From the NCBI GenBank assembly GCA_964016885.1, contig OZ024764.1:26536001-26600000 (forward strand): a stretch of DNA of 64,000 bases. The letters run 5' to 3'. Made by a program: the position numbers and the translations under genes. Positions within the stretch are counted from its first letter, which is position 1. Every line of letters starts with the position of its first letter. This DNA is from Eledone cirrhosa. Lineage: Eukaryota. Positions 1-63,300 of this stretch are shown here, piece by piece. The notes beneath the pieces are model-generated. The model was not told the DNA's origin. It made no database searches and saw only the letters and a list, made by a program, of their open reading frames with translations.

Positions 1-95
1 CATCTCTGCCCCTGTGGCTAATAAATCTGTCATGTAATGTTATGGACATCTCTGCCCCTGTGGCTAATAATTCTGACATGTAATGTTATGGACAT
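1..95 (+). repeat. Tail of 46-bp minisatellite array (end of the same insert seen at 56107-58735)
   Basis: Two units of CATCTCTGCCCCTGTGGCTAATAA(A/T)TCTG(T/A)CATGTAATGTTATGGA, then the same junction as 58716-58745. Confidence 0.9.
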
Positions 96-115
96 TGCTA
101 TCTTGTTTCATCTCA

Positions 116-5346: not shown

Positions 5347-5479
5347 GTCAGTGATCCCCCTCGCAACCTTTAATTAAACAAACCTGCGATGAGGCGATGA
5401 TCAAAATAAACACCAAAGTATAAACAAACAGCCCATAGGTGCTGCCGGATACACGATAACATGTGTAGACGAAGTAAAA

Positions 5480-12414: not shown

Positions 12415-12979
12415 CAAATGAATATATATATATATATATATATATACTACTAAAGTGTATGTAAAATTTTAAAATAAATACTTAAATTCAATTTGTATAA
12501 TTACACATACAATATGTTTTGTTGTAAAACCCTAAATAATGATTTAAGAAATGATGTCAATCTCTTTGTACAGAGAAAAACAATTTATATATATGCATTG
12601 TGTGCGCGTGTATACTCCATTTAAGACATTGAAAAACCTAGTACCTCCTTCAAAGAATGCCAAATAGTTTATGCCTAAGGTGTAACACTAATTAAGTTAC
12701 CGGTGTAGATATTTCAGTTGAACCCTGCTTCAAACATGCATATTATTATTATATATTTTCAAACACACTTACATACATTATATTTATACACATAGAAATA
12801 ATAAGTTAAAACTAAAGTATAATGATATAACAACAGTATATAATAGTTTTCTTCACTTTATTGAAATGCAATCGTTTTAAAGAAAAAACATGACAGTATA
12901 AGAAATATTTAATATGATAACATAATATTTCAGGTAGGATGGTGGTTTCTCTATGATGGTGGTTTCTCTTTGAACTAAT

Positions 12980-13124
12980 AATTGTTTCTATTTTAGGCAC
13001 AAGGTCAGTAATTAACCAGTACATTACTAGTACTTTATTTTATCGACCCCGTAAGGATGAAAGGCAAAGTTGACCTCGGATCGTAAAGGGACGTAACTAT
13101 GCTGGAAAGCATGGCGTCAGACCC
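12980..13124 (-). mobile_element. tRNA-SINE, truncated by the GA array (fuller copy at ~56640-56810)
   Basis: TACTTTATTTTATCGACCCCGTAAGGATGAAAGGCAAAGTTGACCTCGG core. Confidence 0.75.
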
Positions 13125-23898: not shown

Positions 23899-23905
23899 TT
23901 CTGAT

Positions 23906-26900: not shown

Positions 26901-29900
26901 CGCTCTCCCTCTCTCTCGTTTCATCTCTGTCTTCCTCTCTCTCGTTTCATCTCGCTCTCTCTCTCTCTCGTTTCATCTCTGTCTTCCTCTCTCTCGTTCC
27001 ATCTCTCACTTCCTCTCTCTCGTTCCATCTCTCTCTTCCTCTCTCTCGTTTCATCTCTATCTCCCTTCTTTCATCTGTCTCTCTCTCTGTCGTTTCATCT
27101 CGCGCTCTCTCTCTCTCTCGTTTCATCTTGCGCTCTCTCTCTCTCTCGTTTCGTCTTGCTCTCTCTCTCTCTCGTTTCATCTCTGTCTTCCTCTCTCTCG
27201 TTCCATCTCTCTCTTCCTCTCTCTCGTTCCATCTCTCTCATCCTCTCTCTCGTTTCATCTCTATCTCCCTCCTTTCATCTGTCTCTCTCTCTGTCGTTTC
27301 ATCTCGCGCTCTCTCTCTCTCGTTTCATCTTGCGCTCTCTCTCTCTCGTTTCATCTCGCTCTCTCTCTCGTTTCATCTCTGTCTTCCTCTCTCTCGTTCC
27401 ATCTCTCTCTTCCTCTCTCTCATTCCATCTCTCTCTTCCTCTCTCTCGTTTCATCTCTATCTCCCTTCTTTCATCTGTCTCGCTCTCTGTAGTTTCATCT
27501 CGCGCTCTCTCTCTCTCGTTTCATGTCGCGCTCTCTCTCTCTCGTTTCATCTCGCTCTCTCTCTCTCGTTTCATCTCTGTCTTCCTCTCTCTCGTGCCAT
27601 CTCTCTCTTCCTCTCTCTCGTTCCATCTCTCTCTTCCTCTCTCTCGTTTCATCTCTATCTCCCTTGTTTCATCTCTCTCTCGCTCTCTCGTTTCATCTCT
27701 CTCTCCCTCTCGTTTCATCTCGCTCTCTCTCTCCTGTTTCATCTCGCTCTCTCTCTCTCTCGTTTCATCTCTGTCTTCCTCTCTCTCGTTCCATCTCTGT
27801 CTTCCTCTCTCTCGTTCCATCTCTCTCTTCCTCTCCCTCGTTTCATCTCTCTCTCGCTCTCTCGTTTCATCTCTCTCTCCCTCTCATTTCATCTCGCTCT
27901 CTCTCTCCTGTTTCATCTCGCTCTCTACTCTCGTTTCCTCTCTCTCTCTCGTTTCATCTCTCTCTCCCTCCCGTTTCATCTCGCTCTCTCTCTCTCATTT
28001 CATCTCGCTCTCTCTCTCTCGTTTCATCTCGCTCTCCCTCTCTCGTTTCATCCCGCTCTCACTCTCTCATTTCTTCTCGCTCTCTCTCTCTTGTTTCAAC
28101 ACTCTAATCCCTCACTTGTTTACTATCTCTCAGAATTATTAGCCACAGGGACAGAGATGACCATAACATTACATGTCAGAATTATTAGCCACAAGGGCAG
28201 AGATGTCCATAACATTACATGACAGAATTATTAGCCACAGGGGCAGAGATGACCATAACATTACATGAAAATTATTAGCCACAGGGGCAGATATGTCAAT
28301 AACATTACATGACAGAGTTTCATCTCGCGCTCTCTCTCTCGTTTCATCTTGCGCTCTCTCTCTCTCTCGTTTCATCTTGCTCTCTCTCTCGTTTCATCTC
28401 TGTCTTCATCTCTCTCGTTCCATCTCTCTCTTCCTCTCCCTCGTTCCATCTCTCTCATCCTCTCTCTCGTTTCATCTCTATCTCCCTCCTTTCATCTGTC
28501 TCTCTCTCTGTCGTTTCATCTCGCGCTCTCTCTCTCTCGTTTCATCTCGCGCTCTCTCTGTCTCGTTTGATCTCGCTCTCTCTCGTTTCATCTCTGTCTT
28601 CCTCTCTCTCGTTCCATCTCTCTCTTCCTCTCTCTCGTTCCATCTCTCTCTTCCTCTCTCTCGTTTCATCTCTATCTCCCTCGTTTCATCTCTCTCTCGC
28701 TCTCTCGTTTCATCTCTCTCTCCCGCTTGTTTCTTCTCGCTCTCTCTCTCCTGTTTCATCTCGCTCTCTACTCTCGTTTCCTCTCTCTCATTTCCTCTCT
28801 CTCTCGTTTCATCTCTGTCTCGTTTCATCTCGCTCTCTCTCTTTCTCGTTTGATCTCGCTCTCACTCTCTCGTTTCATCTCGCTTCTCTCACTCTCTTGT
28901 TTCATCTCGCTCTCTCTCTCTCTTCCTCTCTCTCTCTTGTTTCAACACTCTAATCCCTCACTTGTTTTATCTCTCTCTAATCCCTCACTTGGTTCATCTC
29001 TCTCAGAATTATTAGCCACAGGGGCAGAGATGTCCATAACATTGCATGTCAGAATTATTAGCCACAGGGCAGAGATGTCCATAACATTACGTCAGAATTA
29101 TTAGCCACAGGGGCAGAGATGTCCATAACATTACATGTCAGAATTATTAGCCACAGGGGCAGAGATGTCCATAACATTACATGACAGAATTATTAGCCAC
29201 AGGGGCAGAGATGTCCATAACATTACATGTCAGAATTATTAGCCATAGGGGCAGAGATGTCCATAACATTACATGACAATTATTAGCCCCAAGGGCAGAT
29301 ATGTCGATAACATTACATGAGAGAGTTTCATCTCGCGCTCTCTCTCTTCCTCTCTCTCGTTTCATCTCTGTCTTCCTCTCTCTCGTTCCATCTCCCTCTT
29401 CCTCTCTCTCGTTCCATCTCTCTCTTCCTCTCTCTCGTTTCATCTCTATCTCCCTCCTTTCATCTGTCTCTCTCTCTGTCGTTTCATCTCGCGCTCTCTC
29501 TCTCTCGTTTCATCTTGCGCTCTCTCTCTCTCGTTTCATCTCGCTCTCTCTCTCTCTCGTTTCATCTCTGTCTTCCTCTCTCTCGTTCCATCTCTCTCTT
29601 CCTCTCTCTCGTTTCATCTCTATCTCCCTCGTTTCATCTCTCTCTCGCTCTCTCGTTTCATCTCTCTCTCCCTCTCGTTTCATCTCACTCTCTACTCTCG
29701 TTTCCTCTCTGTCTCGTTCCATCCCGCTCTCTCTCTCTCTCATTACATCTCGCTCTCTCTGTCTCGTTTCATCTCGCTCTCACTCTCTCGTTTCAACACT
29801 CTAATCCCTCACTTGTTTTATCTCTCTCTAATCCCCCACTTGTTTCATCTCTCTCAGAATTATTAGCCACAGGGGGAGAGATGTCCATAACATTACATGT

Positions 29901-32900
29901 AAGAATTATTAGCCACAGGGGCAGAGATGTCCATAACATTACATGACAGAATTATTAGCCACCGGGCCAGTGATGTCCATAACATTACATGACAATTATT
30001 AGCCCGAAGGGCAGATATGTCCATAACATTACATGACAGAGTTTCATCTTGCGCTCTCTCTCTTGCTCTCTCTCGTTTCATCTCGCTCTCTCGTTTCATC
30101 TCGCTCTCTCTCGTTTCATCTCTGTCTTCCTCTCTCTCGTTCCATCTCTCTCTTCCTCTCTCTCGTTCCATCTCTCTCTTCCTCTCTCTCGTTCCATCTC
30201 TCTCTTCCTCTCTCTCGTTTCATTTCTATCTCCCTCCTTTCATCTGTCTCTCTCTCTGTCGTTTCATCTCGCGCTCTCTCTCTCTCGATTCATCTCGCGC
30301 TCTCTCTCTCTCGTTTCATCTCGCTCTCTCTCTCTCTCTCGTTTCATCTCTGTCTTCCTCTCTCTCGTTCCATCTCTCTCTTCCTCCCTCTCTTCCTCTC
30401 TCTCGTTTCATCACTATCTCCCTCGTTTCATCTCTCTCTCCCTCTCGTTTCATCTCGCTCTCTCTCTCCTGTTTCATCTCGCTCTCTACTCTCGTTTCCT
30501 CTCTGTCTCGTTCCATCCCGCTCTCTCTCTCTCTCATTACATCTCGCTCTCTCTGTCTCGTTTCATCTCGCTCTCTCTCTCTCTCGTTTCATCTCGCTCT
30601 CACTCTCTCGTTTCATCTCGCGTTTCATCTCACTCTCCCTGTCTCATTTCATCTCGCTCTCTCTCTCTCTCTTCCTCTCTCTCTCTTGTTTCAACACTCT
30701 AATCCCTCACTTGTTTTATCTCTCTCTAATCCCTCACTTGTTTCATCTCTCTCAGAATTATTAGCCACAGGGGCAGAGATGTCCATAACATTACATGTCA
30801 GAATTATTAGCCACAGGGCAGAGATGTCCATAACATTACATGTCAGAGTTATTAGCCACAGGGGCAGAGATGTCCATAACATTACATGTCAGAATTATTA
30901 GCCACAGGGGCGGAGACGTCCATAACATTACATGACAGAATTATTAGCCACAGGGGCAGAGATGACCATAACATTACATGACAATTATTAGCCACAGGGG
31001 CAGATATATCAATAACATTACATGATAGAGTTTCATCTCGCGCTCTCTCTCTCTCGTTTCATCTTGCTCTCTCTCTCTCTCGTTTCATCTCTGTCTTCCT
31101 CTCTCTCGTTCCATCTCTCTCTTCCTCTCTCTCGTTCCATCTCTCTCATCCTCTCTCTCGTTTCATCTCTATCTCCCTCCTTTCATCTGTCTCTCTCTCT
31201 GTCGTTTCATCTCGTGCTCTCTCTCTCTCGTTTCATCTCGCGCCCTCTCTGTCTCGTTTCATCTCGCTCTCTCTCTCTCTCGTTTCATCTCTGTCTTCCT
31301 CTCTCTCGTTCCATCTCTCTCTTCCTCTCTCTCTTCCTCTCTCTCGTTTCATCTCTATCTCCCTCGTTTCATATCTCTCTCGCTCTCTCGTTTCATCTCT
31401 CTCTCCCTCTCGTTTCATCTCGCTCTCTACTCTCGTTTCCTCTCTGTCTCGTTCCATCCCGCTCTCTCTCTCTCACATTACATCTCGCTCTCTCTGTCTC
31501 GTTTCATCTCGCTCTCTCTCTCTCTCGTTTCATCTCGATCTCACTCGCTCGTTTCATCTCGCTTCTCTCACTATTGCGTTTCATCTCGCTCTCCCTGTCT
31601 CATTTCATCTCGCTCTCTCTCTCTCTCTTCCTCTCTCTCTCTTGTTTCAACACTCTAATCCCTCACTTGTTTTATCTCTCTCTAATCCCTCCCTTGTTTC
31701 ATCTCTCTCAGAATTATTAGCCACTGGGGCAGAGATGTCCATAACATTACATGTCAGAGTTATTAGCCACAGGGGCAGAGATGTCCATAACATTACATGA
31801 CAATTATTAGCCCCAAGGGCAGATATGTGCATAACATTACATGACAGAGTTTCATCTCGCGCTCTCTCTCTCTCGTTTCATCTCGCGCTCTCTCCCTTCC
31901 TCTCTCTCGTTTCATCTCGATCTCTCTCTCTCTCGTTTCACCTCTGTCTTTCATCTCTCTCTTCCTCTCTCTCGTTCCATCTCTCTCTTCCTCTCTCTCG
32001 TTTCATCTCTATCTCCCTCCTTTCATCTGTCTCTCTCTCTGTCGTTTCATCTCGCGCTCTCTCTCTCTCCTTTCATCTCGTGCTCTCTCTCTCTCGTTTC
32101 ATCTCTGTCTTCCTCTCTCTCGTTCCATCTCTCTCTTCCTCTCTCTCTTCCTCTCTCTCGTTTCATCTCTATCTCCCTCGTTTCATCTCTCTCTCCCTCT
32201 CGTTTCATCTCGCTCTCTCTCTCCTGTTTCATCTCGCTCTCTACTCTCGTTTCCTCTCTCTCGTTTCCTCTCTGTCTCGTTCCATCCCGCTCTCTCTCTC
32301 TCTCATTACATCTCGCTCTCTCTGTCTCGTTTCATCTCGCTCTCTGTCTCTCTCGTTTCATCTCGCTCTCACTCTCTCGTTTCATCTCGCGTTTCATCTC
32401 ACTCTCCCTGTCTCATTTCATCTCGCTCTCTCTCTCTCTTCCTCTCTCTCTCTTGTTTCAACACTCTAATCCCTCACTTGTTTTATCTCTCTCTAATCCC
32501 TCACTTGTTTCATCTCTCTCAGAATTATTAGCCACAGGGGCAGAGATGTCCATAACATTACATGTCAGAATTATTAGCCACAGGGCAGAGATGTCCATAA
32601 CATTACATGTCAGAATTATTAGCCACAGGGGCAGAGATGTCCATAACATTACATGTCAGAATTATTAGCCACAGGGGCGGAGACGTCCATAACATTACAT
32701 GACAGAATTATTAGCCACAGGGGCAGAGATGACCATAACATTACATGACACTTATTAGCCACAGGGGCAGATATATCAATAACATTACATGATAGAGTTT
32801 CATCTCGCGCTCTCTCTCTCTCTCGTTTCATCTTGCGCTCTCTCTCTCTCGTTTCATCTTGCTCTCTCTCTCTCTCGTTTCATCTCTGTCTTCCTCTCTC

Positions 32901-34690
32901 TCGTTCCATCTCTCTATTCCTCTCTCTCGTTCCATCTCTCTCATCCTCTCTCTCGTTTTATCTGTATCTCCCTCCTTCAATCTGTCTCTCTCTCTGTCGT
33001 TTCATCTCGTGCTCTCTCTCTCTCGTTTCATCTCGCGCTCTCTCTGTCTCGTTTCATCTCGCTCTCTCTCTCTCTCTCTCGTTTCATCTCTGTCTTCCTC
33101 TCTCTCGTTCCATCTCTCTCTTCCTCTTTCTCGTTCCATCTCTCTCTTCCTCTCTCTCGTTTCATCTCTATCTCCCTCGTTTCATCTCTCTCTCGCTCTC
33201 TCGTTTCATCTCTCTCTCCCTCTCGTTTCATCTCCCTCTCTACTCTCGTTTCCTCTCTGTCTCGTTCCATCCCGCTCTCTCTCTCTCTCATTACATCTCG
33301 CTCTCTCTGTCTCGTTTCATCTCGCTCTCTCTCGCTCTCGTTTCATCTCGCTCTCACTCTCTCGTTTCATCTCGCTTCTCTAACTATTGCGTTTCATCTC
33401 GCTCTCCCTGTCTCATTTCATCTCGCTCTCTCTCTCTCTCTTCCTCTTGTTTCAACACTCTAATCCCTCACTTGTTTTATCTCTCTCTAATCCCTCACTT
33501 GTTTCATCTCTCTCAGAATTATTAGCCACAGGGGCAGAGATGTCCATAACATTACATGTCAGAGTTATTAGCCACAGGGGCAGAGATGTCCATAACATTA
33601 CATGACAATTATTAGCCCCAAGGGCAGATATGTCCATAACATTACATGACAGAGTTTCATCTCGCGCTCTCTCTCTCTCGTTTCATCTCGCGCTCTCTCT
33701 CTTCCTCTCTCTCGTTTCATCTCGCTCTCTCTCTCTCTCGTTTCACCTCTGTCTTCCTCTCTCTCGTTCCATCTCACTCTTCCTCTCTCTCATTTCATCT
33801 CTCTCTCTCTCGTTTCATCTGTCTCTCTCTCTGTCGTTTCATCTCCCTCTATCTCTCTCTCCCTCTCGTTTCATCTCGCTCTCTCTCTCCTGTTTCATCT
33901 CGCTCTCTCTCTCTCATTTCATCTCGCTCTCTCTCTCTCATTTCATCTCGCTCTCTCTCTCTCGTTTCATCTCGCTCTCACTCTCTCGTTTCATCTCGCT
34001 CTCACTCTCTCGTTTCATCTCGCTCTCCCTGTCTCGTTTCATCTCGCTCACACTCTCTCATTTCATCTCGCTCTCTCTCTCTTCTTTCAACACTCTAATC
34101 CCTCACTTGTTTCATCTCTCTCAGAATTATTAGCCACAGGGGCAGAGATGTCCATAACATTACATGTCAGAATTATTAGCCACAGGGGCAGAGATGTCCA
34201 TAACATCACATGTCAGAATTATTAGCCACAGGGGCAGAGATGTCCATAACATTACATGTCAGAATTATTAGCCACAGGGGCAGAGATGTCCATAACATTA
34301 CATGACAGATTTATTAGCCACAGGGGCAGAGATGTCCATAACATTACATGGCAGATTTATTAGCCACAGGGGCAGAGATGTCCATAACATTACATGTCAG
34401 AATTATTAGCCACAGGGGCAGAGATGTCCATAACATTACATGACAGATTTATTAGCCACAGGGGCAGAGATGTCCATAACATTACATGACAGATTTATTA
34501 GCCACAGGGGCAGAGATGTCTATAACATTACATGACATAATTATTAGCCACAGGGGCAGAGATGTCCATAACATTACATGACAGATTTATTAGCCATAGG
34601 GGCAGAGATGACCATAACATTACATGACAGAATTATTAGCCACAGGGGCAGAGATGTCCATAACATTACATGACAGAATTATTAGCCACA
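23906..34690 (-). repeat. Right arm of composite satellite: 10 modules in inverted orientation
   Basis: CT blocks begin at ~24083, 25736, 26732, 28313, 29321, 30037, 31026, 31845, 32793, 33650, separated by reverse-complement 46-bp arrays. Confidence 0.95.
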
Positions 34691-34917
34691 TGTAATGTTA
34701 TGGACATCTCTGCCCCTGTGGCTAATAATTCTGTCATGTTATGTTATGGACATCTCTGCCCCTGTGGCTAATAATTCTGACATGTAATGTTAGGGACATC
34801 TCTGCCCCAGTGGCTCATAATTCTGACATGTAATGTTATGGACATCTCTGCCCCTGTGGCTAATAATTCTGTCATGTAATGTTATGGACATCTCTGCCCC
34901 TGTGGCTAATAATTCTG
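34688..34917 (+). repeat. Re-inverted 46-bp array, ~5 units
   Basis: Junction ATTAGCCACA|TGTAATGTTATGGAC. Confidence 0.9.
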
Positions 34918-35979
34918 TTCAAATCTGACTGACATGCATGGTATATATTTATGTTTCATTAGACACCGCCACAATACACAGGAACTTATAAAGATATGTA
35001 TATATTGTCCAGGAGTTTCGAGTTTAGTGGGAATTGTACAAATCTCAATTGGAGCTAGTCCCTGCAAGATCAGCATAAATAATGTTATACCTTTTCATGA
35101 AATCTTGCACACCCGATATTTTATACATGATTATTTAAAGGTGAACAAAAACCGAAGAACATTGAGCAGCATTTCTCAACCTTTCTACCCATGTTGATCT
35201 CTTGAAATAGTTTTTATGTCTCAAGGAAGCCTTGCATAAAATATACTTTTTCTATCTCTAGAGCAGTGGTTCCCAAATCGTGTGCTGTGAGATGAAACTA
35301 GATGAGCTGCAAAAGACTAAGATTAAGTTTTAAGATGTGAAAAATATAAAACTGAAATTTCATATAAAAGTTCAAATATAGCTACAGCCACAAACCTAGG
35401 CTCCACACCCCGCAACGCAGAGGAGAGTAAGATAGTACTGAGCCCTGACTCACCTCTTCCACTCCATTGAGACCTCTGCCATACTTGGTCCCCCTACTGC
35501 TGATTTCCTCCATAAAGTCGGGAGGAAAGACGGCAGGAGCCTCGTGAGGAGGGGCAACTATTGTAGCAGGTGTCTCTGGCCTTGTTCCGAGGTAACGCTT
35601 TTACGTTTCTTCCACGTGTTGCGGCTGAGGGACCACTTAGACTGGGGTGAAGTGTCTGTCCCTCCCCCGACTTCTTACTTCCTTTTTTTTCTCCTTTTCA
35701 ATTTCTTTTCTCTTCTTGCTTATCTCTGCTATACCACGGCATCAAAAAGATATATGATATATGTATGTATGGTATAGGTGTATTTATATTTAGGATAGTT
35801 ATCAAAGGTAAATAGACTGGTTGGAGTAATAACAGTCTTGTTTATGTATATACACACATATATACATATATATATATATATATATATGTTTGTTCTTGTA
35901 TTTCTATAGAAAAGGTAAAGAAAAGAAGAGTGCTCTATGTATTGTACAGAGCTATTTAATTACATAATAAACAACAGAA

Positions 35980-38259
35980 TGGAAAACATTCAGACAGAGA
36001 AGAATGGATAATGAGCGTTGTAAGAGAAATTGGCCAACAATTAATATTAATGGAAATGTAGAAGAATTTCATATTAGTGATATGAATGTTTCGTGTGATC
36101 ACTGTGGAGCTTTGAAATTTAGAAATGAAAATTGTATCTGTTGTAATAAAGGAAAGGTTGTGTTGCCACCATTGCAAATATACCCTGAGAGACTGAGAAA
36201 TCTCTTTGAAAGAGGCCAGGAAGCAGTTGATTTCACAGAAACATCTGCAATTAAAACTACATTTATTTCACTTCATTTGGTGTTACCACCCGGCAGAGGC
36301 CCGTATAGCTTTCATATTCAGGGTCAAACATATCAATACACCCCCATCTCTGTAACCTGCAGAAAATACACCACAATATGGCCAGTTATATATTATTGAT
36401 GGGAATGAAAGTGTGTAGCACAGATTGGAAGTACAACCAAATAATTGTTTCTGGCACAAGGCCAGCAATTACTGGTACTTTATTCTATCGACCTCATAAG
36501 GATGAAAACAAAGTCAACCTTAGAGGGATTTGAACCCAGAACGTAAAGGGCCATAACCCTATGCTGCAAAGCATGGTGTCTGACGCTCTACCGATACTGC
36601 CAATCCACCGCCCTAGTACCAACAAATAATGACTGCTCACCACAAAAAATGGCTATGATAAGAGAGGTGTTGCATGAATGTTATCCATATGTCGAAGTGT
36701 ACAATACAATGCATGGCATCAAACAGCAAATTTCTAGAAGAGAAAATTGTCGTGTACAGAACTGTGAATTAAGATTTAGAAGAGGATCAGATATGAGCTG
36801 CTATAATTTACCAACTAGTAATGATAGCTGTTGTTTTGTGGGGGATTGAGGGCACACCACCTGTACAAAGAGATATTATCATCTTTCCTAAAGACCATCC
36901 TCCTCAGAAAATACCACATAATTCATGCCACTTGGACCTCATGACCGACCGATAATGGTGAATTTTGGTGGCATAGTGACATGGAGAGGAATGCAGGACC
37001 TGTGTTTGCAATAGACTGACAATGCAGGAGTATTACATATACTGTATAGCATATAGAGGAGGATTTAGTGCGATATATAGGGCAGGTAAATTATTTTAGC
37101 AGTATTTAGTGGATGCCTATATGAAAGTAGAGGGATGCAGGCTTCAATATTTGAGGAACAATCAAGCCCAATTGTGAGTGGATGAGTATAATGGTTTAAT
37201 GAATTATCTAAACAGATGATAACACTGAGCCTTAAAAAATGAAGACAAGATATGAAACAGAGAAGACATTGACAGAATCGTGTCAGCAGAAATACCTGCA
37301 TTGGAAGATGATCCAGTACTACATGAGCAGGTTTAAAAGTTTATTATCCACAGGCCATGTGGTTCTGGAAACCCTTTTCCCCCATTTATACAAAATGGAT
37401 TTTTCCAAAAGAACTATCCAAAAACCTACAGAAGGGAAACATTATTGAACCTAAATGGATACCCAGAGTACAGGAGGTGCAAGACAGGAACTGCAGTGTA
37501 AATTGGATGACATTCAGTAGATAACAGGAATGTTGTGCCACTTAATGCCTTTTTGCTTAAGAAATATTGTGCACATATTAATGTTGAAGTTTGCGCTTCT
37601 GTAAAAAGTGTCAAGTACCTCTTTAAATATGTTACATGGGGCATGATTGTACATCTATAGAAGTAACGAATAATGCATTACCTAATGAGGCTCAGAACCA
37701 ACACAACCATGATGAAATAAGAACCTATCTTTGTTGCAGGTATGTGTCTCAGCCAGAAGCAGTGTTGTGTCTCTCAGAATTTAAGCTTCATGGTACATCA
37801 CATACAGTATACAGCCTAGCCACACACCTGGAGAACAAACAGAGTTTACTTTCAAAGAGGCAATGCTTACACCTTCTGGGATGCCGCCTCACTAACTCCA
37901 ATTAAAAGCAGGATCAATAATAATGCTTCTATGGAATATTTCAATCCAGAACAGATTATTTTATTGGCACAAGATTAGAAGTAGTGGAACTGCATAAACA
38001 TTTTATCGAAGCTTCTCATATCTATGGTCCTTTGATGGGCAGGTGTGTTTTGATCCGAAGACTGAAGTTAGTTCCCAGTGGTGCCAACATCCCTTTTACT
38101 TTGGAAAGACCCCAGTTTCCATTAAGACTGTCATATGCCATGACAATCAACAAGAACCATGGTCAAATACATGATAAAGTGGGTCTGTTCCTCCCTGAGC
38201 AAGTATTTAACCCTGGACAATTGTATGTTGCTTTTTCAAGAGTTCACAGACAGATGTAA
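35980..38259 (+). pseudogene. Helitron Rep/helicase pseudogene (copy 3, no satellite insert)
   Basis: Same motifs and lesions as the other copies, with an extra small deletion near 37866. Confidence 0.9.
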
Positions 38260-45297: not shown

Positions 45298-47652
45298 ATG
45301 CAAATAGACTTAGAATGGAAAACATTCAGACAGAGAAGAATGGATAATGAGCGTCATAAGAGAAATTGGCCAACAATTAATATTAATGGAAATCTAGAAG
45401 AATTTCATATTAGTGATATGAATGTTTCGTGTGATCACTGTGAAGCTTTGAAATTTAGAAATGAAAATTGTAACTGTTGTAATAAAGGAAAGGTTGTGTT
45501 GCCTCCATTGCAAATATACCCCGAGAGACTGAGAAATCTCTTTGAAAGAGGCCAGGAAGCAGTTGATTTCACAGAAACATCTGCAATTAAAACTACATTT
45601 ATTTCACTTCATTTGGTGTTACCACTCGGCAGAGGCCCGTATAGCTTTCATATTCAGGGTCAAATATATCACTACACCCCCACCTCTGTAACCTGCAGAA
45701 AATACACCACAATATGGCCAGTTATATATTATTGATGGGAACGAAGGTGTGTAGCACAGATTGGAAGTACAACCAAATAATTGTTTCTGGCACAAGGCCA
45801 GCAATTACTGGTACTTTATTCTATCGACCTAATAAGGATGAAAACAAAGTCAACCTTGGAGGGATTTGAACCCAGAACGTAAAGGGCCATAACCCTATGC
45901 TGCAAAGCATGGTGTCTGACGCTCTACCGATACTGCCAATCCACCGCCCTAGTACCAACAAATAATGACTGCTCACCACAAAAAATGGCTATGATAAGAG
46001 AGGTGTTGCATGAATGTTATCCATATGTCGAAGTGTACAATACAATGCATGGCATCAAACAGCAAAGTGCAAGAAGAGAAAATTGTCGTGTACAGAACTG
46101 TGAATTAAGATTTAGAAGAGGATCAGATATGAGCTGCTATAATTTACCAACTAGTAATGATAGCTGTTGTTTTGTGGGGTTTGAGGGCAGACCACCTGTA
46201 CAAAGAGATATTATCATCTTTCCTAAAGACCATCCTCCTCAGAAAATATCACATAATTCATGCCACTTGGACCTCATGACTGACCCATAATGGTGAATTT
46301 TGGTGGCATAGTGACATGGAGAGGAATGCAGGACCTGTGTTTGCAATAGACTGACAATGCAGGAGTATTACATATACAGTATAGCATATAGAGGAGGATT
46401 TAGTGTGATATATAGGGCAGGTAAATTATTTTAGCAGTATTTAGTGGATGCCTATATGAAAGTAGAGGGATGCAGGCTTCTATATTTGAGGAACAATCAA
46501 GCCCAATTGTGAGTGGATGAGTATAATGGTTTAATGAATTATCTAAACAGATGATAACACTGAGCCTTAAAAAATGAAGACAAGATAAGAAACAGAGAAG
46601 ACATTGACAGAATCGTGTCAGCAGAAATACCTGCATTGGAAGATGATCCAGTACTACATGAGCAGGTTTAAAAGTTTATGATCCACAGGCCATGTGGTTC
46701 TGGAAACCCTTTTCCCCCATTTATACAAAATGGATTTTTCCAAAAGAACTATCCAAAAACCTACAGAAGGGAAACATTATTGAACCTAAATGGATACCCA
46801 GAGTACAGGAGGTGCAAGACAGGAACTGCAGTGTAAATTGGATGACATTCAGTAGATAACAGGAATGTTGTGCCATTTAATGCCTTTTTGATTAAGAAAT
46901 ATTGTGCACATATTAATGTTGAAGTTTGCGCTTCTGTAAAAAGTGTCAAGTACCTCTTTAAATATGTTACATGGGGCATGATTGTACATCTATAGAAGTA
47001 ACGAATAATGCATTACCTAATGAGGCTCAGAACCAACACAACCATGATGAAATAAGAACCTATCTTTGTTGTAGGTATGTGTCTCAGCCAGAAGCAGTGT
47101 CGTGTCTCTCGGAATTTAAGCTTCATGGTACATCACATACAGTATACAGCCTAGTCACACACCTGGAGAACAAACAGAGTTTACTTTCAAAGAGGCAATG
47201 CTCAGGTTGTGGTAGAAATGCAGGGACCCTTGCTGCCTGGTTCAAGCTAAATGAACTTGCTTACACCTTCTGGGATGCCGCCTCACAAACTCCAATTATA
47301 AGCAGGATCAATAATAATGCTTCTATGGAATATTTCAATCCAGAACAGATTATGTAATGGCACAAGATTAGAAGTAGTAGAACTGCATAAACATTTTATC
47401 AAAGCTTCTCATATCTATGGTCCTTTGATGGGCAGGTGTGTTTTGATCCCAAGACTGAAGTTATCCCCCAGTGGTGCCAACATCCCTTTTACTTTGGAAA
47501 GACCCCAGTTTCCATTAAGACTGTCATATGCCATGACAATCAACAAGAACCATGGTCAAATACATGATAAAGTGGGTCTGTTCCTCCCTGAGCAAGTATT
47601 TAACCCTGGACAATTGTATGTTGCTTTTTCAAGAGTTCACAGACAGATGTAA
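45298..47652 (+). pseudogene. Helitron Rep/PIF1 pseudogene (copy 4, most contiguous)
   Basis: Cys-rich N-terminus, YNLPTSN, RDIII, Rep KYLFKY motif and helicase C-terminal motifs; HUH motif and helicase motifs I-IV not found. Confidence 0.92.
45782..45950 (-). mobile_element. tRNA-derived SINE inside the Helitron (copies ~12139, ~36446, ~55830)
   Basis: Minus-strand A box TGGCAGTATCGG and B box GGTTCAAATCC; imperfect 16-bp TSD AGTACAACCAAATAAT / AGTACCAACAAATAAT. Confidence 0.8.
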
Positions 47653-53185: not shown

Positions 53186-55204
53186 TTTTTTAAACTCTGA
53201 ACTCAGCATCTTTCTGTTGTTCTCCGGGATTCTAGCAAAGTATAAAAATATATATATATATATAGCTGGCAGTCAACCTCAGACTCGAAAAAGCCGCCGC
53301 TAATCGTGATCGTTGGGGTTATAATTAGACTAAAAGTGCTTCCACTGGGCACCATTAGCTGATTGTGATCATTGGAGAATTCTTTCTGCGCTGAAAGAGC
53401 CTAGGACTAAAAGATATATATATAGATGTCGAAACGGCAGTAGCACAGCCGTTGGGGTCCTGAATATTTTCACATCTATATATGTGTGTGTATTCTGCGA
53501 CATTTATAATTACATAAGCAAGCATATTTGAATAACAAAATTTGAGGTTTAAATACTTTATTTTTTACCAATAACATAGAGAAAGGCATGAACAACACCA
53601 CATGTTAATTACTTTAATATTGAAAGTAGGGTTATAAAGATTAAAAAAGCAGATTTTTTAATCTTTCATGGTGGTCTGGTGGGTGATACCAGAGATGGTG
53701 GTAGTCCTGGTTTCGGTTTCAATCCTGGTCATGGGTTACATATAAGGTCTCATTTTTTTTTTTCTTTCTTTCAGTTTTCTTCTTATCTCTAGATATAAAT
53801 ATATATACATAAGGTAATTTGGTAGAATTGTTAGAACATCAGATAGAATTCTTTGCAGTATTTTTCCAGTTCTTTACTCTGAGTTCAACTTTACCTTTCT
53901 TCCATTCGGTGTCGATAAGTCTTGAATATGTCTAACGTAGCAATAATTGGAGCTACTTAACCAAGTTTTCCCAACCTAGTCGATGTCACCTACTGGTTGG
54001 CGATTTAAACTGTTGGCTGGGACAATGACCAACTAATCAGTCAGATTCGAACTCACTATGTCTGGCATATATTTTATATTTTATATTTGAATGACGTTCT
54101 GTAAGTAACCTGGTGGCTTAGATGGCAATACTGCTCGAATAGATGGCTTCTATTATGAAGTTATAAGTTCATTCCCTATCCAGGATTGTAGAATTAATTT
54201 TATTTAGTTATTATTTAATCAATTGTTTTAACAAACAAATTATATCTATAAAACGCCAAATATAGTGAGTTCAAATCTGACTGACATGCATGGTATATAT
54301 TTATGTTTCATTATACAACGACACAATACACAGGAACTTATAAAGATATGTATATATTGTCCAGGAGTTTCGAGTTTAGTGGGAATTGGTACAACTCTCA
54401 ATTGGAGCTAGTTCCTGCAAGATCAGCATAAATAATGTTATACCTTTTCATGAAATCTTGCACACCCGATGTTTTATACATGATTATTTAAAGGTGAACA
54501 AAAACCAAAGAACATTGTGCAGCATTTCTCAACCTTTCTACCCATGTCGATCTCTTGAAATAGTTTTTATGTCTCAGGGATGCCCTGCATAAAATATACT
54601 TTTTCTATCTCTAGAGCAGTGGTTCCCAAATCGTGTGCTGCGAGATGAAACAAGATGAGCTGCAAAAGACTAAGATTAAGTTTTAAGATGTGAAAAATAT
54701 AAAACTGAAATTTCATATAAAAGTTCAAATATAGCTACAGCCACAAACCTAGGCTCCACACCCCGCAATGCAAAGGATAGTAAGATAGTACCAAGGCCTG
54801 ACTCACCTCTTCCACTCCATTGAGACCTCTGCCATACTTGGTCCCTGTACTGCTGATTTCCTCCATAAAGTCGGGAGGAAAGACGACAGGAGCCTCATGA
54901 GGAGGGGCGACTATTGTAGCAGGTGTCTCTGGCCTTGCTCCGAGGTAACGCTTTTACGTTTCTTCCACAGGTTGCGGCTGAGGGACCACTTAGACTGGGG
55001 TGAAGTGTCTGTCCCTCCCCCGACTTCTTACTTCTTTTTTTTTCTCATTTTCATTTTCTTTTCTCTTCTTGCTTATCTCTGCTATACCACGGCATCAAAA
55101 ACATATATGATATGTGTATGTATGGTATAGGTGTATTTATATTTAGGATAGTTATCAAAGGTAAATAGACTGGTTGAAGCAATAACAGTCTTGTTTATGT
55201 ATAT

Positions 55205-55245
<41 letters not shown>

Positions 55246-55346
55246 TGTTCTTGTATTTCCATAGAAAAGGTAAAGAAAAGAAGAATGCTCTATGTATTGT
55301 ACAGAGCTATTTAATTACATAATAAACAACAGAATATAATTATTCC

Positions 55347-58300
55347 ATGCAAATAGACTTAGAATGGAAAACATTCAGACAGAGAAGAATGGATAATGAG
55401 CGTCGTAAGAGAAATTGGCCAACAATTAATATTAATGGAAATGTAGAAGAATTTCATATTAGTGATATGAATGTTTCGTGTGATCACTGTGGAGCTTTGA
55501 AATTTAGAAATGAAAATTGTAACTGTTGTAATAAAGGAAAGGTAGTGTTGCCACCATTGCAAATATACCCTGAGAGACTGAGAAATCTCTTTGAAAGAGG
55601 CCAGGAAGCAGTTGATTTCACAGAAACATCTGCAATTAAAACTACATTTATTTCACTTCATTTGGTGTTACCACCCGGCAGAGGCCCGTATAGATTTCAT
55701 ATTCAGGGTCAAACATATCAATACACACCCATCTCTGTAACCTGCAGAAAATACACCACAATATGGCCAGTTATATATTATTGATGGAAACGAAGGTGTG
55801 TAGCACAGATTGGAAGTACAACCAAATAATTGTTTCTGGCACAAGGCCAGCAATTACTGGTACTTTATTCTATCGACCTCATAAGGATGAAAACAAAGTC
55901 AACCTTAGAGGGATTTGAACCCAGAACGTAAAGGGCCATAACCCTATGCTGCAAAGCATGGTGTCTGACGCTCTACCGATACTGCCAATCCACTGCCCTA
56001 GTCCCAACAAATAATGACTGCTCACCACAAAAAATGGCTATGATAAGAGAGGTGTTGCATGAATATAATCCATATGTCGAAGTGTACAATACAATGCATG
56101 GCATCACAAATGAATATATATATATATACTACTAAAGTGTATGTAAAATTTTAAAATAAATACTTAAATTCAATTTGTATAATTACACATACAATATGTT
56201 TTGTTGTAAAACCCTAAATAATGATTTAAGAAATGATGTCAATCTCTTTGTACAGAGAAAAACAATTTATATATATGCATCGTGTGCGCGTGTATACTCC
56301 ATTTAAGACAGCGAAAAACCTAGTACCTCCTTCAAAGAATGCCAAATAGTTTATGCCTAAGGTGTAACACTAATTAAGTTACTGGTATAGATATTTCAGT
56401 TGAACCCTGCTTCAAACATGCATATTATTATTATATATTTTCAAACACACTTACATACATTATATTTATACACATAGAAATGTTAAAACTAAAGTATAAT
56501 GATATAACAACAGTATATAATAGTTTTCTTCACTTTATTGAGATGCAATCGTTTTAAAGAAAAAACATGACAGTATAAGAAATATTTAATATGATAACAT
56601 AATATTTCAGGTAGGATGGTGGTTTCTCTTTGAACTAATAATTGTTTCTACTTTAGGCACAAGGCCAGCAATTAACCAGTACATTACTGGTACTTTATTT
56701 TATCGACCCCGTAAGGATGAAAGGCAAAGTTAACCTCGGATCGTAAAGGGACGTAACTATGCTGGAAAGCATGGCGTCAGACCCTCTACCGATACTGCCA
56801 ATTCACCATACAGTATAATTATACAAATATGCATATAGATAGCAATATATATACACTAATATGTATGTACATATTTATACATATATACATATATATAGGG
56901 AGAGAGAGAGACACATGTATGTATATATATATACACATGCGTGTATGTATGTGTTTATGTACATTCTTCGGTATATATATATGAGTCACGGTTTATTACA
57001 CATTGGAGACACAGAGAGAAAGAGTTGAAACGAGAGGTGAGAGAGTTGAAACAAGAGAGGAGAGAGTTGAAACGAGAAAAGAGAGAGAGAGTTGAAACGA
57101 GAGGAGAGAGAGAGAGAGTTGTAACGAGAGGAGAGAGAGAGAGAGAGTTGAAACGAGAGGAGAGAGAGTTGAAACGAGGAGAGAGTTGAAACAAGAGGGT
57201 GAGGGGAGAGAGGGGAGAGAGTGATGAAACGAGTCGGAGATAGAGTGTGAAAGAGAGAGAGAGAGGAAGAGAGAGAGAGAGAGGAAGAGAGAGAGAGAGG
57301 AAGAGAGAGAGAGAAAGAGAGAGAGAGAGGAAGAGAGAGAGAGGAAGAGGGAGAGGGGGGATGAAACAAGAGGGTGAGGGATGAAACAAGAGGGTGAGGG
57401 ATGAAACAAGAGAGAGAGGGGAGAGAAAGAGAGAGGGGAGAGAAAGAGAGAGGGGAGAGAAAGAGAGAGAGAGAGAGAGAACGAATTGAAACAAGAGAGA
57501 GATGAAACAAGTGAGGGATTAGAGTGTTGAAACAAGAGAGAGAGGAAGAGAGAGAGAGAGCAAGATGGAACGAGAGAGAGAGAGCGAGATGAAATGAGAG
57601 CGAGATGAAACGAGAGAGAGAGAGAGTGAGATGAAATGAGAGAGAGAGAGAGCGAGAGAGAGAGCGAGATGAAACGAGAGAGAGAGAGAGAGAGAGAGAG
57701 CGAGATGAAATGAGACAGAGAGAGCGAGATGAAACGAGAGAGAGAGAGAGCGAGATGAAATGAGAGAGTGAGTGCGAGATGAAATGAGAGAGAGTGAGAG
57801 CGACATGAAATGAGAGAGAGAGAGCGAGATGAAACGAGAGAGAGAGAGAGCGAGATGAAATGAGAGAGAGTCAGAGCGAGATGAAATGAGAGAGTGAGAG
57901 CGAGATGAAATGAGAGAGAGAGAGCGAGATGAAATGAGAGAGAGTGAGAGCGAGATGAAATGAGAGAGAGAGAGCGAGATGAAATGAGAGAGAGAGGAAA
58001 CGAGACTAGAGAGCGAGATGAAACAGGAGAGAGAGAGCGAGATGAAACAGGAGAGAGAGAGCGAGATGAAACAGGAGAGAGAGAGCGAGATGAAACGAGA
58101 GGGAGAGAGAGATGAAATGAGAGAGCGAGAGAGAGATAGAGGGAGATGAAACGACAGAGAGAGAGACAGATGAAACGAGAGAGAGAAATAGAGATGAAAC
58201 GAGAGAGAGTGATGAAACGAGAGAGAGGAAGAGAGAGATGGAACGAGAGAGAGGAAGAGAGAGATGGAACGAGAGAGAGGAAGACAGAGATGAAATGAGA

Positions 58301-60334
58301 GAGAGGAAGACAGAGATGAAACGAGAGAGAGAGAGAGCGAGATGAAACGAGAGAGAGAGAGCGCGAGATGAAACTCTGTCATGTAATGTTATGGACATAT
58401 CTGCCCCTGGGGCTAATAATTGTCATGTAATGTTATGGTCATCTCTGCCCCTGTGGTTAATAATTCTGTCATGTAATGTTATGGTCATGTCTGCACCTGT
58501 GGCTAATAAATCTGTCATGTAATGTTATGGTCATCTCTGCCCCTGTGGCTAATAATTCTGTCATGTAATGTTATGGACATCTCTGCCCCTGTGGCTAATA
58601 ATTCTGACATGTAATGTTATGGACATCTCTGCCCCGGTGGCTAATAATTCTGACATGTAATGTTATGGACATCTCTGCCCCTGTGGCTAATAATTCTGAC
58701 ATGTAATGTTATGGACATTGCTATCTTGTTTCATCTCAAACAGCAAAGTGCAAGAAGAGAAAATTGTCGTGTACAGAACTGTGAATTAAGATTTAGAAGA
58801 GGATCAGATATGAGCTGCTCTAATTTACCAACTAGTAATGATAGCTGTTGTTTTGTGGGGGATTGAGGGCACACCACCTGTACAAAGAGATATTATCATC
58901 TTTCCTAAAGACCATCCTCCTCAGAAAATACCACATAATGCATGCCACTTGGACCTCATGACCGACCGATAATGGTGAATTTTGGTGGCATAGTGCCATG
59001 GAGAGGAATGTAGGACCTGTGTTTGCAATAGACTGACAATGCAGGAGTATTACATATACTGTATAGCATATAGAGGAGGATTTAGTGCGATATATAGGGC
59101 AGGTAAATTATTTTAGCAGTATTTAGTGGATGCCTATATGAAAGTAGAGGGATGCAGGCTTCAATATTTGAGGAACAATCAAGCCCAATTGTGAGTGGAT
59201 GAGTATAATGGTTTAATGAATTATCTAAACAGATGATAACACTGAGCCTTAAAAAATGAAGACAAGATAAGAAACAGAGAAGACATTGACAGAATCGTGT
59301 CAGCAGAAATACCTGCATTGGAAGATGATCCAGTACTACATGAGCAGGTTTAAAAGTTTATGATCCACAGGCCATGTGGTTCTGGAAACCCTTTTCCCCC
59401 ATTTATACAAAATGGATTTTTCAAAAAGAACTATCCAAAAACCTACAGAAGGGAAACATTATTGAACCTAAATGGATACCCAGAGTACAGGAGGTGCAAG
59501 ACAGGAACTGCAGTGTAAATTGGATGACATTCAGTAGATAACAGGAATGTTATGCCATTTAATGCCTTTTTGCTTAAGAAATATTGTGCACATATTAATG
59601 TTGAAGTTTGCGCTTCTGTAAAAAGTGTCAAGTACCTCTTTAAATATGTTACATGGGGCATGATTGTACATCTATAGAAGTAACGAATAATGCATTACCT
59701 AATGAGGCTCAGAACCAACACAACCATGATGAAATAAGAACCTATCTTTGTTGCAGGTATGTGTCTCAGCCAGAAGCAGTGTCGTGTCTCTCGGAATTTA
59801 AGCTTCATGGTACATCACATACAGTATACAGCCTAGCCACACACCTGGAGAACAAACAGAGTTTACTTTCAAAGAGGCAATGCTCAGGTTGTGGTAGAAA
59901 TGCAGGGACCCTTGCTGCCTGGTTCAAGCTAAATGAACTTGCTTACACCTTCTGGGATGCCGCCTCACTAACTCCAATTATAAGCAGGATCAATAATAAT
60001 GCTTCTATGGAATATTTCAATCCAGAACAGATTATGTAATGGCACAAGATTAGAAGTAGTAGAACTGCATAAACATTTTATCAAAGCTTCTCATATCTAT
60101 GGTCCTTTGATGGGCAGGTGTGTTTTGATCCCAAGACTGAAGTTATCCCCCAGTGGTGCCAACATCCCTTTTACTTTGGAAAGACCCCAGTTTCCATTAA
60201 GACTGTCATATGCCATGACAATCAACAAGAACCATGGTCAAATACATGATAAAGTGGGTCTGTTCCTCCCTGAGCAAGTATTTAACCCTGGACAATTGTA
60301 TGTTGCTTTTTCAAGAGTTCACAGACAGATGTAA
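55347..60334 (+). pseudogene. Helitron pseudogene (copy 5), split by a 2.6-kb insert
   Basis: Collinear with copy 4 on both sides of 56107-58735. Confidence 0.9.
56107..58735 (+). mobile_element. 2.6-kb insert: AT-rich DNA + SINE + one GA block + short 46-bp array
   Basis: Empty site GGCATCAAACAG (~46051); filled site GGCATCA|CAAATG ... TTTCATC|TCAAACAG, a possible 3-bp TCA duplication; no TIRs. Confidence 0.75.
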
Positions 60335-63300
60335 AAATTAATCCTAGCAAACCCCCACCACTCCTACAACTGTTAGCTGTTAGCCCACCCCCAGCACCAC
60401 CCAACCTCCGTTCTAGTCCCACCGTTAGAACCAATGCTGCTTACCCTGCCTCTTTTACTAGTTCACTCCGTCGCTCGAATTTCAAAGCTGGCCCTCTACA
60501 CTTGGTCGTTGCCAGCTCACCACCTGGTTGTGCTCTCTGTGTCCGCACTAGCCGGTACCTAAACACAATAAAATGTCACCTGTGCTACCAAAACTACCAC
60601 AGGAACTCTGTCGGCATCAGCAAGGCTCAAGCCGAAAGGCTTCAATACTAGACCTGTAATCAGGGCCACTTTACCTCCGACGACCAGCTTTCTACCGAGT
60701 GTGTGTTGATGGAGGGGACATGAGACCAGCAAAGTCCTAGGAGTAGAGACTAGTAAATAATAAACGGTCCTAGCTATGTTAAGAATATATATAAGAAAAA
60801 TGTTCTATACATTTAAGAAGACAAGAGAAATAAATATTTACCTCTTTCATGTAGGTAATATAGCGGTGTTATAAAAGTATAATAACTGATGCAGGTAGTT
60901 TGTTTCAAACTATAACACATATAACTCTATCAGTGAAGCCCTTTAGTATAGGTCAACTGGGAAACTATAACACATATAACCCTATCAGTGAAGCCCTCTG
61001 GGAAACTATAACACATATAACTCTATCAGTGAAGCCCTTTAGTATAGGTCAACTGGGAAACTATAACACATATAACCCTATCAGTGAAGTCCTTTAGTAT
61101 AGGTCAACTGGGAAATTATAACACATATAACCCTATCAGTGAAGTCCTTTAGTATAGGTCAACTAACAGAAGTATTACGGGTATGGAAAAAATTCTAAAT
61201 AAGCCTACAACAGTCATTGCGGGCCACTCTGACTGGTCAGGTGGGCTCGATTGTGGCCCGCGGGCCGCCTGTTGCACGCCCCTCCTTCAGACAGAATATC
61301 TATCACTGTTAAGTAATACTGTGATCTGTCGGCTAACTACATTTTCCAGCCTGTGGCGTTTGGGGGAGTCGGGATACTGACTGCGAGATTCCTATCTTCA
61401 CTGGCGGCTAGCCTGACGAAGGTGACTGGTGAAGCTCGTGAGGGCACTTGGTTGTTCCAGCTCCTCAGCCTCGCCATCGCCCGAGGTAACGCTGCAGACG
61501 TGCTGGCTTGCCTAAAAAATCATTAGAGAGGTTTCCCAGTGCTCCTCGCGATACTGTTATCTTTTGCTCTAGTAGCAGCTCGTTTGTCCACCCCTTTCGC
61601 CTGCCTTTGGTTGTATGTCGTCCTAGATGTGTGTATTACCTGCTTGTGTGTTGTATGTGGTCCTAGATGTGTGTATTACCTGCTTATGTGGTCCTAGATG
61701 TATGTATTACCTGCTGGTGTGTTGTATGTGGTCCCAGATGTGTGGATTACCTGTTTTTGTGTTGTATGTGGTCCCAAATGTGTGTGCTACCCGCTTCTGT
61801 GATTTGTTGTTTCTTCTTTCTCTCTTCCGAGAAACAATCCTGTATTTTTTTAATCTATTCCATGCGTTAAGTAATTAGCAGCAACAACAAACTGATTTTC
61901 AGTTGTAAAAAGAATCTTTAAACCTTCACCATTTACATTAACACATACCATACGTTGTCCCAGCCACAAATAAACAGTAAAAAAAACTTACTTTGCGGTT
62001 AAATTCTTCACAATTAAAAGAAAAATATTTCTAACACGTTTCTAGACAACACCAAGTTTACACCTTCAATATCCGGTAAAAGTAAAAACATATTCTGGAG
62101 ACATTTAACGAAACGAAACTATGTAAAGAAAAACGAAAATTAAACGAAGACAAATAGTAAATTTTAATTTTTATTAAATAAAATACCAGTAATACACTGC
62201 AGTAGATTTAATCAACTTTACTCTCTCTGCACGAAAGAAGAAAAAAATTCCTGACTTAGTGCTTAATATATAGAGAGGGGGAGAGTTTGGTGTTACTTCA
62301 TATAGAGAGGGGTATTGGAAGAGAGTGCCGTGTAGTAGATATAGAGAGGGAGAGAGTGTGTGCTAATTGATATAAAGAGGGGGATTTGCACCCCCCCCCC
62401 CGCCTAGAAAAATTCTGAAATGCTTCGACCTCCCTGTACATATATATATATATATAGTATACACACACAGACATATATATAGTAAATAAATGTGTGTGTG
62501 TATCAGTGGTCCCCAAACTTTTCTGTTCCACACCCCTCCTCTAAAATATGTTTATGTTCCCCTTTAATATAAAAACAATCCGAGTATTCTGAAAGTATTA
62601 TTACTGTAATATAAAGTAGAAACCCTTTATTTAAACAAAGCTACGATGCAGCGATGATCAAAACAAACTTCTCGTAGGTGCTGCCAAGCGGGGAAAAGTG
62701 GATGTATAATGATGATGATATATATATATATGCCCCACCCTTGCAAACAGGGAAAAGCAGACGTAAAATGAAAATGATGATATATATATAGATAGATAGA
62801 TATGTATATATATATATTTATACTTATACGTCATGGTGGCTACAGGTGCCAAGAGGAAGAAGCCGGTCAAATCCTCTGATATTTGTTTATCTTCCTTTCC
62901 TTTGTATATATATATATAGTATGTGTGTGTGTATGAAGATGTATGACCCCTAGCAAGCCAAACTACAGTTACTCCCCAACATGGAGAGCAAATTAAAACA
63001 TTACCTGTTAGAGACGAACGTGAAATGATTTGTTAGTGAACTACCGGTGTCACAGTAATTATGTTACCGGTGTAACTATTTCTGTTTACCTTATTTTTAA
63101 ATGACACTCCTATATTAGTTTAGTGACCTTTCAATTCAAATAAATTCTTGATGATGATTGAACTCGCATCGGAGTAGCCCAACGCCTTGGCCTCCGCGTG
63201 TGTGAGCCACATAAATGCTCTCAACGACATAGTGAGAAGAAGCCTGGACGCAGCTGAATTTCCATCTCAACTGGAGTCAGCAGGCTTAGGCCGCGGAGAT

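What the first reader, a model, noticed from the sequence alone, without database searches (positions are those of the whole stretch)
56107..58738. Empty, seeded and expanded states of one satellite at the same Helitron site
Seen: the Helitron position GGCATCA^AACAG is empty in copies 3 and 4 (~36717, ~46057). In copy 5, and at the window start, it holds an insert, which in copy 5 is 2.6 kb with one GA+46-bp module. In copy 2 the same insert start (12415) leads into 16 modules over ~22 kb. Inference: this is a side-by-side record of satellite birth from a single module. The insert has a possible 3-bp TCA duplication but no TIR, poly-A or ORF, so its mobility class is unclear.
Basis: partly seen in the sequence, partly recalled or inferred. 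Interest (0 to 1): 0.72.

Follow-up and report, generated by a model that had tools for sequence, protein, structure and literature searches.

The report
One-off patchwork insertion seeds a satellite
A 2.6-kb patch stitched from pieces of another genomic repeat landed once, likely during DNA repair, in a dead jumping gene inside a larger repeated block, and copies of that block survive today empty, with one repeat unit, or with long arrays that probably grew from a single unit.

Summary
The three states are real, and the empty one is ancestral: Helitron homologues align straight across the site. The insert is not a mobile element. All 39 of 46 right ends and 20 of 111 left ends read in the two end surveys sit at this one Helitron position, inside a multi-megabase macro-repeat. 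Its first 0.9 kb is a rearranged patchwork of a different 6.3-kb repeat on C22/C24, joined at 2–4-bp microhomologies; the 'TCA duplication' fits microhomology better than a transposase footprint. One module junction is shared by 908 sites, so array growth began once. Copy 5 is not the seed itself but one of 46 single-module cousins with their own derived changes. Copy 2 lost the insert's right end and ~0.9 kb on the left, and is partly inverted. The window-start copy belongs to the expanded lineage. Trees cannot order single versus expanded states (AU p 0.37 and 0.30); parsimony favours single first (~65%). The source of the GA+46-bp block was not found. A well-documented case of a known process.

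The parts
55326..56106 (+). Left half of the decayed Helitron coding region in copy 5 (carries a SINE-like repeat at 55825-55993)
56104..56106 (+). TCA at the left junction; CA (TCA in 2 of 19 donor copies) is shared with the donor bases just upstream of piece A
56107..56415 (+). Piece A, from the 6.28-kb C22/C24 repeat unit (~89-90% identity with gaps, ~93% without)
56415..56630 (+). Piece C, from ~2.1 kb further along the donor unit; TCAA shared at the A|C junction
56631..57010 (+). SINE-like repeat (56641-56810) plus piece B; donor copy L144 has the same SINE-like insertion at the same site; B lies between A and C in the donor
57011..57495 (+). GA-rich lead-in, not repeated in internal modules; its unique word occurs only in the array clusters (49 of 49 hits)
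57496..58374 (+). GA part of the ~1.2-kb module (GAGATGAAAC words); module start defined by junction J
58375..58718 (+). 46-bp tandem repeat, 7.5 copies
58719..58738 (+). Right filler R; 58723-58737 is a 15-bp inverted match to host 54642-54656 (13 bp also match the satellite word); ends in TCA
58739..60400 (+). Right half of the decayed Helitron (Pif1 2B domain hit in the copy-4 equivalent, E 7.6e-7)
54642..54656 (+). Host 15-mer, possible template for R, 1.45 kb upstream of the site
12415..13124 (+). Copy 2 insert start (A, C, 17-bp duplication, truncated SINE-like repeat), followed by a ~0.9-1.0 kb deletion
13124..23903 (+). Copy 2: six forward modules
23906..34690 (-). Copy 2: ten inverted modules
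34689..34918 (+). Copy 2: last 46-mers and deletion junction T into host 54269 (27 such junctions genome-wide)
36715..36726 (+). Empty site, copy 3
45883..46290 (+). Open frame across the empty site of copy 4 (site at 46057/46058); homologues align across it
1..115 (+). End of the window-start copy: single module with R but expanded-lineage flank and first-module marks

Best explanation
The insert is a single, non-mobile patchwork of copied genomic pieces that entered a dead Helitron once, likely by microhomology-guided template switching during break repair, and it probably carried one GA+46-bp module, which one descendant lineage later duplicated into arrays while a sister lineage kept it single. 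Steps: (1) shown: a decayed Helitron sits in a 10-15 kb macro-unit repeated in clusters on C1, C18, C20, C23, C24 and C25. (2) shown: pieces A, C and SINE+B come from a different 6.28-kb repeat and are out of donor order. (3) inferred: synthesis primed at CA/TCA, switched at TCAA, stuttered 17 bp, entered the GA+46 block (source unknown), copied ~15 bp inverted and returned to the host at TCA; the patchwork may instead have been built in steps elsewhere and moved as one piece. (4) shown: one head-to-tail junction J (GA microhomology) is shared by the modules; inferred: it arose once, after the single lineage split. (5) inferred: unequal exchange and fold-back rearrangements grew and inverted the arrays, deleted the right end, and multiplied the macro-unit, which is why all three states lie side by side.
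For: Empty ancestral: 128 empty junctions; the C23, C24 and C18:14.9 Mb copies read are empty with more diverged flanks, 91-97%; Helitron-type proteins align across the site. One site only: 20 of 20 left flanks and 39 of 39 right flanks read are the same Helitron position; the right end has 46 hits even at 3 mismatches. Donor found; filled copies are one clade against 5 donor rows, 100/98. Donor bases before piece A end in CA in 19 of 19 copies and TCA in 2 of 19; A|C shares TCAA. R matches the host over 15 bp inverted, 0 of 200 shuffles as long. J: 908 hits; by far the commonest exit from a 46-bp array in stored loci (91 exact). No internal module ends in R among 128 modules parsed. Single-module R copies span up to 2.1% divergence. 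Expanded first and most internal modules share a GA word that 29 of 29 single modules lack. Organism B (study P2) holds the A|C junction with the 17-bp duplication and junction J, so these are not assembly artefacts.
Against: Trees do not order the states: basal polytomy; the expanded group is one side of a branch in 0 of 200 bootstrap trees and the single group in 47%; AU tests reject neither (p 0.366, 0.297). The single lineage has derived sites of its own, and the expanded lineage keeps donor-like states. Single states can be secondary: the window-start copy and four truncated C18:25 Mb copies. Junction T marks only 27 ends against some 65 left ends without a right end (111 minus 46), so it does not define the whole expanded group. 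Microhomologies of 2-4 bp are common by chance, and the 15-bp test was chosen after seeing the match. The nearest donors sampled are 4-8% away, so the immediate template was not seen. The GA+46 block has no identified source. One R copy (C20:27044921) abuts a 200-N gap next to an inverted array.
Confidence: 0.6

Rival explanations
1. The insertion captured an already multi-module array (junction J included). Single-module copies such as copy 5 are contractions by recombination between 46-bp tracts, so the site records capture and turnover, not birth.
For: The single group has its own derived sites and is not basal in the donor-rooted tree. The window-start copy shows that a single module with R can sit on an expanded-type flank. 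J is present in organism B, so expansion is at least as old as the A/B split; organism C holds the GA-to-46 junction and 46-mers, and contigs span the empty Helitron site in B and C. Single, first and internal modules differ by similar numbers of changes in the alignable GA block, judged by eye.
Against: Needs a gain and a loss of J instead of one gain. No R-ended multi-module array among 46 right ends (39 read; 7 lie ~2.6 kb from a left end). No independent array of the block was seen: the unique GA word has 49 of 49 hits in the clusters.
Confidence: 0.3
2. The insert is a non-autonomous transposon (Helentron/HINE-, Helitron- or CACTA-like) that made a 3-bp target duplication and whose other copies are lost or diverged.
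For: TCA lies on both sides; one register starts the insert with TC after A; central tandem repeats resemble HINE anatomy (PMC7492417).
Against: No second insertion site; no terminal inverted repeats; the left end is an internal point of another repeat that continues upstream in the donor; the 3' end is CATC, not CTRR (rule recalled).
Confidence: 0.05
3. The three states are assembly artefacts of a collapsed or mis-joined repeat.
For: Highly repetitive region; 200-N gaps occur in two fetched stretches.
Against: States carry consistent lineage-specific substitutions across four contigs; junctions A|C, GA-to-46, J and the empty site are held in contigs of another study.
Confidence: 0.02

Closest known systems
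Rsp-like satellite seeded into 1.688 arrays in the Drosophila simulans clade (bioRxiv 10.1101/846238; passages seen)
   Same: A rare microhomology-mediated event makes a hybrid junction that then spreads with the flanking repeat as a higher-order unit; FoSTeS/MMBIR proposed for complex junctions.
   Different: There the satellite pre-exists and several insertions are inferred. Here there is one insertion, a patchwork from an identified non-satellite repeat, into a dead Helitron in a 10-15 kb macro-unit.
Satellites expanded from short arrays inside LTR retrotransposons in Lathyrus sativus (PMC7004042; abstract and outline seen)
   Same: Short and expanded states of one tandem repeat coexist inside copies of a carrier element.
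   Different: The carrier there is a dispersed retrotransposon; here it is a decayed Helitron inside tandem segmental arrays, and the expanding unit is a composite 1.2-kb module.
Cg_HINE non-autonomous Helentrons with central repeats, Crassostrea gigas (PMC7492417; abstract, sections 3 and 9 read); DINE-TR1 (seen only as cited in PMC9659126 passages)
   Same: Unique flanks around a central tandem array; empty sites recoverable in other repeat copies.
   Different: HINEs have subterminal inverted repeats, prefer TT targets and are dispersed; this insert has none of these and occupies one site.
MMBIR-type multi-templated insertions (PMC8421209; passages seen)
   Same: Several pieces copied from templates out of order, with 2-12 bp microhomology at junctions; germline events persist.
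   Different: The founding events described there are short and copied from within 100 bp; this insert is 2.6 kb, draws on a repeat on other contigs and later fed a satellite.

Membership tests
Non-autonomous Helentron (HINE) | Subterminal inverted repeats and a 3' palindrome | tested here: not met
   No end-to-end inverted pair among the 25 longest of 47 pairs; features from PMC7492417 section 3
Non-autonomous Helentron (HINE) | TT target, no duplication, dispersed copies | tested here: not met
   Target is GGCATCA^AACAG; one site only; features from section 9
Canonical Helitron (insert) | 5' TC, 3' CTRR, A^T target (recalled) | tested here: not met
   One register gives A^TC but the end is CATC; the TC/CA is donor-internal sequence
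TIR DNA transposon / MITE / CACTA | Terminal inverted repeats with a fixed-length TSD at many sites (recalled) | tested here: not met
Retroposed copy | Poly-A tail and longer TSD (recalled) | tested here: not met
   Ends seen
Multi-templated repair insertion (MMBIR/FoSTeS/TMEJ type) | Identifiable templates, out of order | tested here: met
   A, C, SINE+B from the C22/C24 unit; no template found for the GA+46 block
Multi-templated repair insertion (MMBIR/FoSTeS/TMEJ type) | Microhomology at junctions | tested here: inconclusive
   2-3 bp left, 4 bp A|C, 3 bp right, 0-2 bp C|B; each is short enough for chance
Multi-templated repair insertion (MMBIR/FoSTeS/TMEJ type) | All pieces joined in one event by a known repair pathway | not testable with these tools
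   A stepwise build elsewhere is not excluded
Helitron (host relic) | Rep (PF14214) and PIF1 helicase coding homology | tested here: met
   8 of 9 homologues scanned carry PF14214 and 3 also PIF1; Pif1 2B hit in the window; many stops and frameshifts
Helitron (host relic) | Intact termini | not tested
   Ends of the host element were not mapped
Satellite born from one module | Single-module copies basal to expanded copies | tested here: inconclusive
   Polytomy; AU p 0.366 and 0.297

The most novel reading that the evidence does not exclude
The whole satellite (about 900 modules, over 1 Mb) was made at one repair scar: its core word GAGATGAAACAAG was copied from host sequence 1.45 kb upstream, and empty, seeded and expanded states plus the donor repeat all survive in one genome, giving a complete, datable record of satellite origin without any transposition.
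Probability: 0.12. Interest if true: 0.62.

Novelty: new member of a known kind. Interest (0 to 1): 0.38.

Why it matters
How a satellite's first unit arises is rarely visible, because the seed and the empty site are usually lost. Here macro-unit amplification kept 128 empty, 46 single-module and some 65 expanded or truncated copies, and the donor of part of the insert is still in the genome. With long reads from two close relatives, the order of insertion, duplication and inversion can be tested directly. The processes involved (microhomology-seeded insertion, growth of short arrays inside carrier repeats) are already described in flies, oysters and legumes, so this is a clear example and not a new mechanism. 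No function is suggested.

Tried and rejected
Mobile-element reading: rejected. DNA search with the left end returned only array copies (40 scored of 479 candidates); the donor was found through an internal motif. Donor for the GA+46 block: none found; the 46-mer's best matches to host (10 bp) and donor (11 bp) are at chance level (135 and 34-35 of 200 shuffles), and hit lists show only the first 100 of 4138 46-mer and 908 J matches, so later contigs could not be viewed. Left-end search: 11 of 111 hits unlisted. Helitron-flank tree was distorted by truncated C18:25 Mb copies and left filled versus empty unresolved. The piece-C alignment failed for 5 rows (strand flip) and was replaced by reference projection. 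I first took junction T as defining all expanded copies; only 27 exist. Rfam: 0 hits in two donor loci; the donor unit's open frames were not searched against protein families. Pfam gave no Helitron hit on the frame across the site itself. Sequencing runs: no RNA holder listed. No contig was listed across the filled left junction in organisms B or C, and none across R in any of four runs, including one of organism A; contigs show presence only, so this is not used as evidence. Organism A runs may be the assembly's source and were left out as support. Literature searches (listings only, apart from the five papers named) found no description of this satellite; supplements were not opened. Earlier-findings look-ups by sequence and by nearby place gave nothing relevant.

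Full report
Setting. The window is G000:C25:26536001-26600000 in a 3.0-Gb animal assembly. The window lies in a multi-megabase array of a 10-15 kb unit holding a decayed Helitron.

Observation. All coordinates in the finding hold. Copy 5 carries a 2632-bp insert with one GA block and 7.5 46-mers; copy 2 has 16 modules, 6 forward and 10 inverted. Copy 2 is not simply copy 5 with more modules: it lacks about 0.9-1.0 kb after 56784 and lacks the right end, joining host position 54269 of the next unit.

Polarity. The frame across the empty site has 95 homologues at E<=0.001. Nine aligned homologues run across the site, with one 3-residue gap a few codons downstream, in sequence shared by filled and empty copies. 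Eight of 9 scanned carry PF14214. There are 128 empty junctions; the five copies read on C23, C24 and C18:14.9 Mb are empty with more diverged flanks. Empty is ancestral.

Mobility. The left end has 111 hits (100 listed); the right end has 46, unchanged at 3 mismatches. All listed hits lie in a few macro-unit clusters on C1, C18, C20 and C25. Twenty of 20 left flanks and 39 of 39 right flanks read are the same Helitron position; the other 7 right ends lie about 2.6 kb from a left end. A few copies lost the left junction by later deletion (C25:14.7 Mb, L113, L147). The insert entered once and spread only with its host.

Origin of the insert. An internal motif has 170 hits, many in 6.3-kb-spaced arrays on C22 and one on C24. 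In those units the order is A...B...C; in the insert it is A, C, SINE+B. Donor copy L144 has the same SINE-like insertion before B. Donor bases before A end in CA in 19 of 19 copies and TCA in 2, matching the host end GGCATCA; A|C shares TCAA. The last 15 bp before the terminal A are an inverted match to host 54642-54656 (0 of 200 shuffles), though 13 of them also match the satellite's own word. This is the anatomy of a multi-templated repair insertion (PMC8421209, passages); the pathway and a single-event origin are inferred. None of the 15 C22/C24 loci fetched holds GA words or 46-mers, and the block's unique word occurs only in the clusters (49 of 49). Its source is unknown.

Single versus expanded. 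Of 128 modules parsed, the 30 ending in R are first modules (28) or cut off by the fetch (2); none is internal. Modules share one junction J (908 hits), so duplication began once; at 1.36 kb per module as in copy 2, that is about 1.2 Mb (estimate). Array ends seen are junction T (27 hits) or inverted segments joined to host ~55170 or ~55256. In a 642-column tree of 72 filled copies and 5 donor rows, filled copies are one clade (100/98) with a basal polytomy; AU tests reject neither group as a clade. All 40 single-lineage rows have the derived base at 56387, and 18 of them, copy 5 included, are identical over these columns. Copy 5 is therefore a recent cousin, 1.7% from copy 2, not its ancestor. 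The window-start copy is 0.47% from copy 2, shares its first-module marks, yet is single with R: most likely a recombinant or contraction, possibly an early relic. Parsimony (one gain of J against gain plus loss) favours single-first; I put it near 65%.

Other organisms. In study P2, organism B holds a contig across A|C with the 17-bp duplication and donor-like bases, plus the GA-to-46 junction and J. Organism C holds the GA-to-46 junction and 46-mers; contigs span the empty site in both. The junctions are thus real DNA, and expansion is at least as old as the A/B split. These data cannot order insertion and expansion.

Comparison and verdict. Microhomology-seeded satellites that spread with a flanking repeat are described in Drosophila (10.1101/846238, passages), and short arrays expanding inside carriers in Lathyrus (PMC7004042, abstract) and oyster (PMC7492417, sections 3 and 9). 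The insert fails the HINE, Helitron, TIR and retroposon tests. Five searches found no account of this satellite; supplements were not opened. It is a new and well-resolved instance of a known process, without a sign of function. Interest 0.38.

Noticed in passing
L072:4762-4891 (G000:C7 ~42172762-42172891): About three 46-mers sit alone inside what looks like a SINE-like repeat, far from any array; likely a small templated patch copied from the satellite.
   Followed up: partly
L134, L144 and other C22/C24 loci: A 6.28-kb non-coding-looking tandem unit with about 100 copies and a 149-bp, 97% perfect hairpin; no Rfam hit; class unknown.
   Followed up: partly
window:23903-23906 and 34689: Strand switches in the array fall at short inverted motifs of the 46-mer (TAATAA/TTATTA; ACATGT); many expanded arrays have a forward then an inverted half.
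   Followed up: partly
L074-L078 (G000:C1:212.61-212.63 Mb): An isolated ~23-kb piece of the array on C1 with two T junctions and two extra SINE-like insertions; the most diverged filled copy.
   Followed up: partly
L146:1590-1833 (G000:C18:25006590): A ~200-bp fragment of the insert (piece B end and GA start) lies between a 40-bp repeat and an empty Helitron copy.
   Followed up: no
window:9195-10084; 2284-2555; 3001-3189: Three more young tandem repeats (89, 55 and 40 bp) vary in copy number among macro-unit copies.
   Followed up: no
window:51486-53150 and 5474-6701: A ~470-bp inverted repeat pair in the macro-unit, possibly a MITE-like element.
   Followed up: no
L097 (G000:C25:26428000-26437999): Arrays of a ~72-bp unit similar to window 40044-40110 flank an empty Helitron copy.
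   Followed up: no
P0002: A 2349-aa database protein matches only the SINE-derived residues of the query, in 36 stretches; probably a gene model built from repeat DNA.
   Followed up: no
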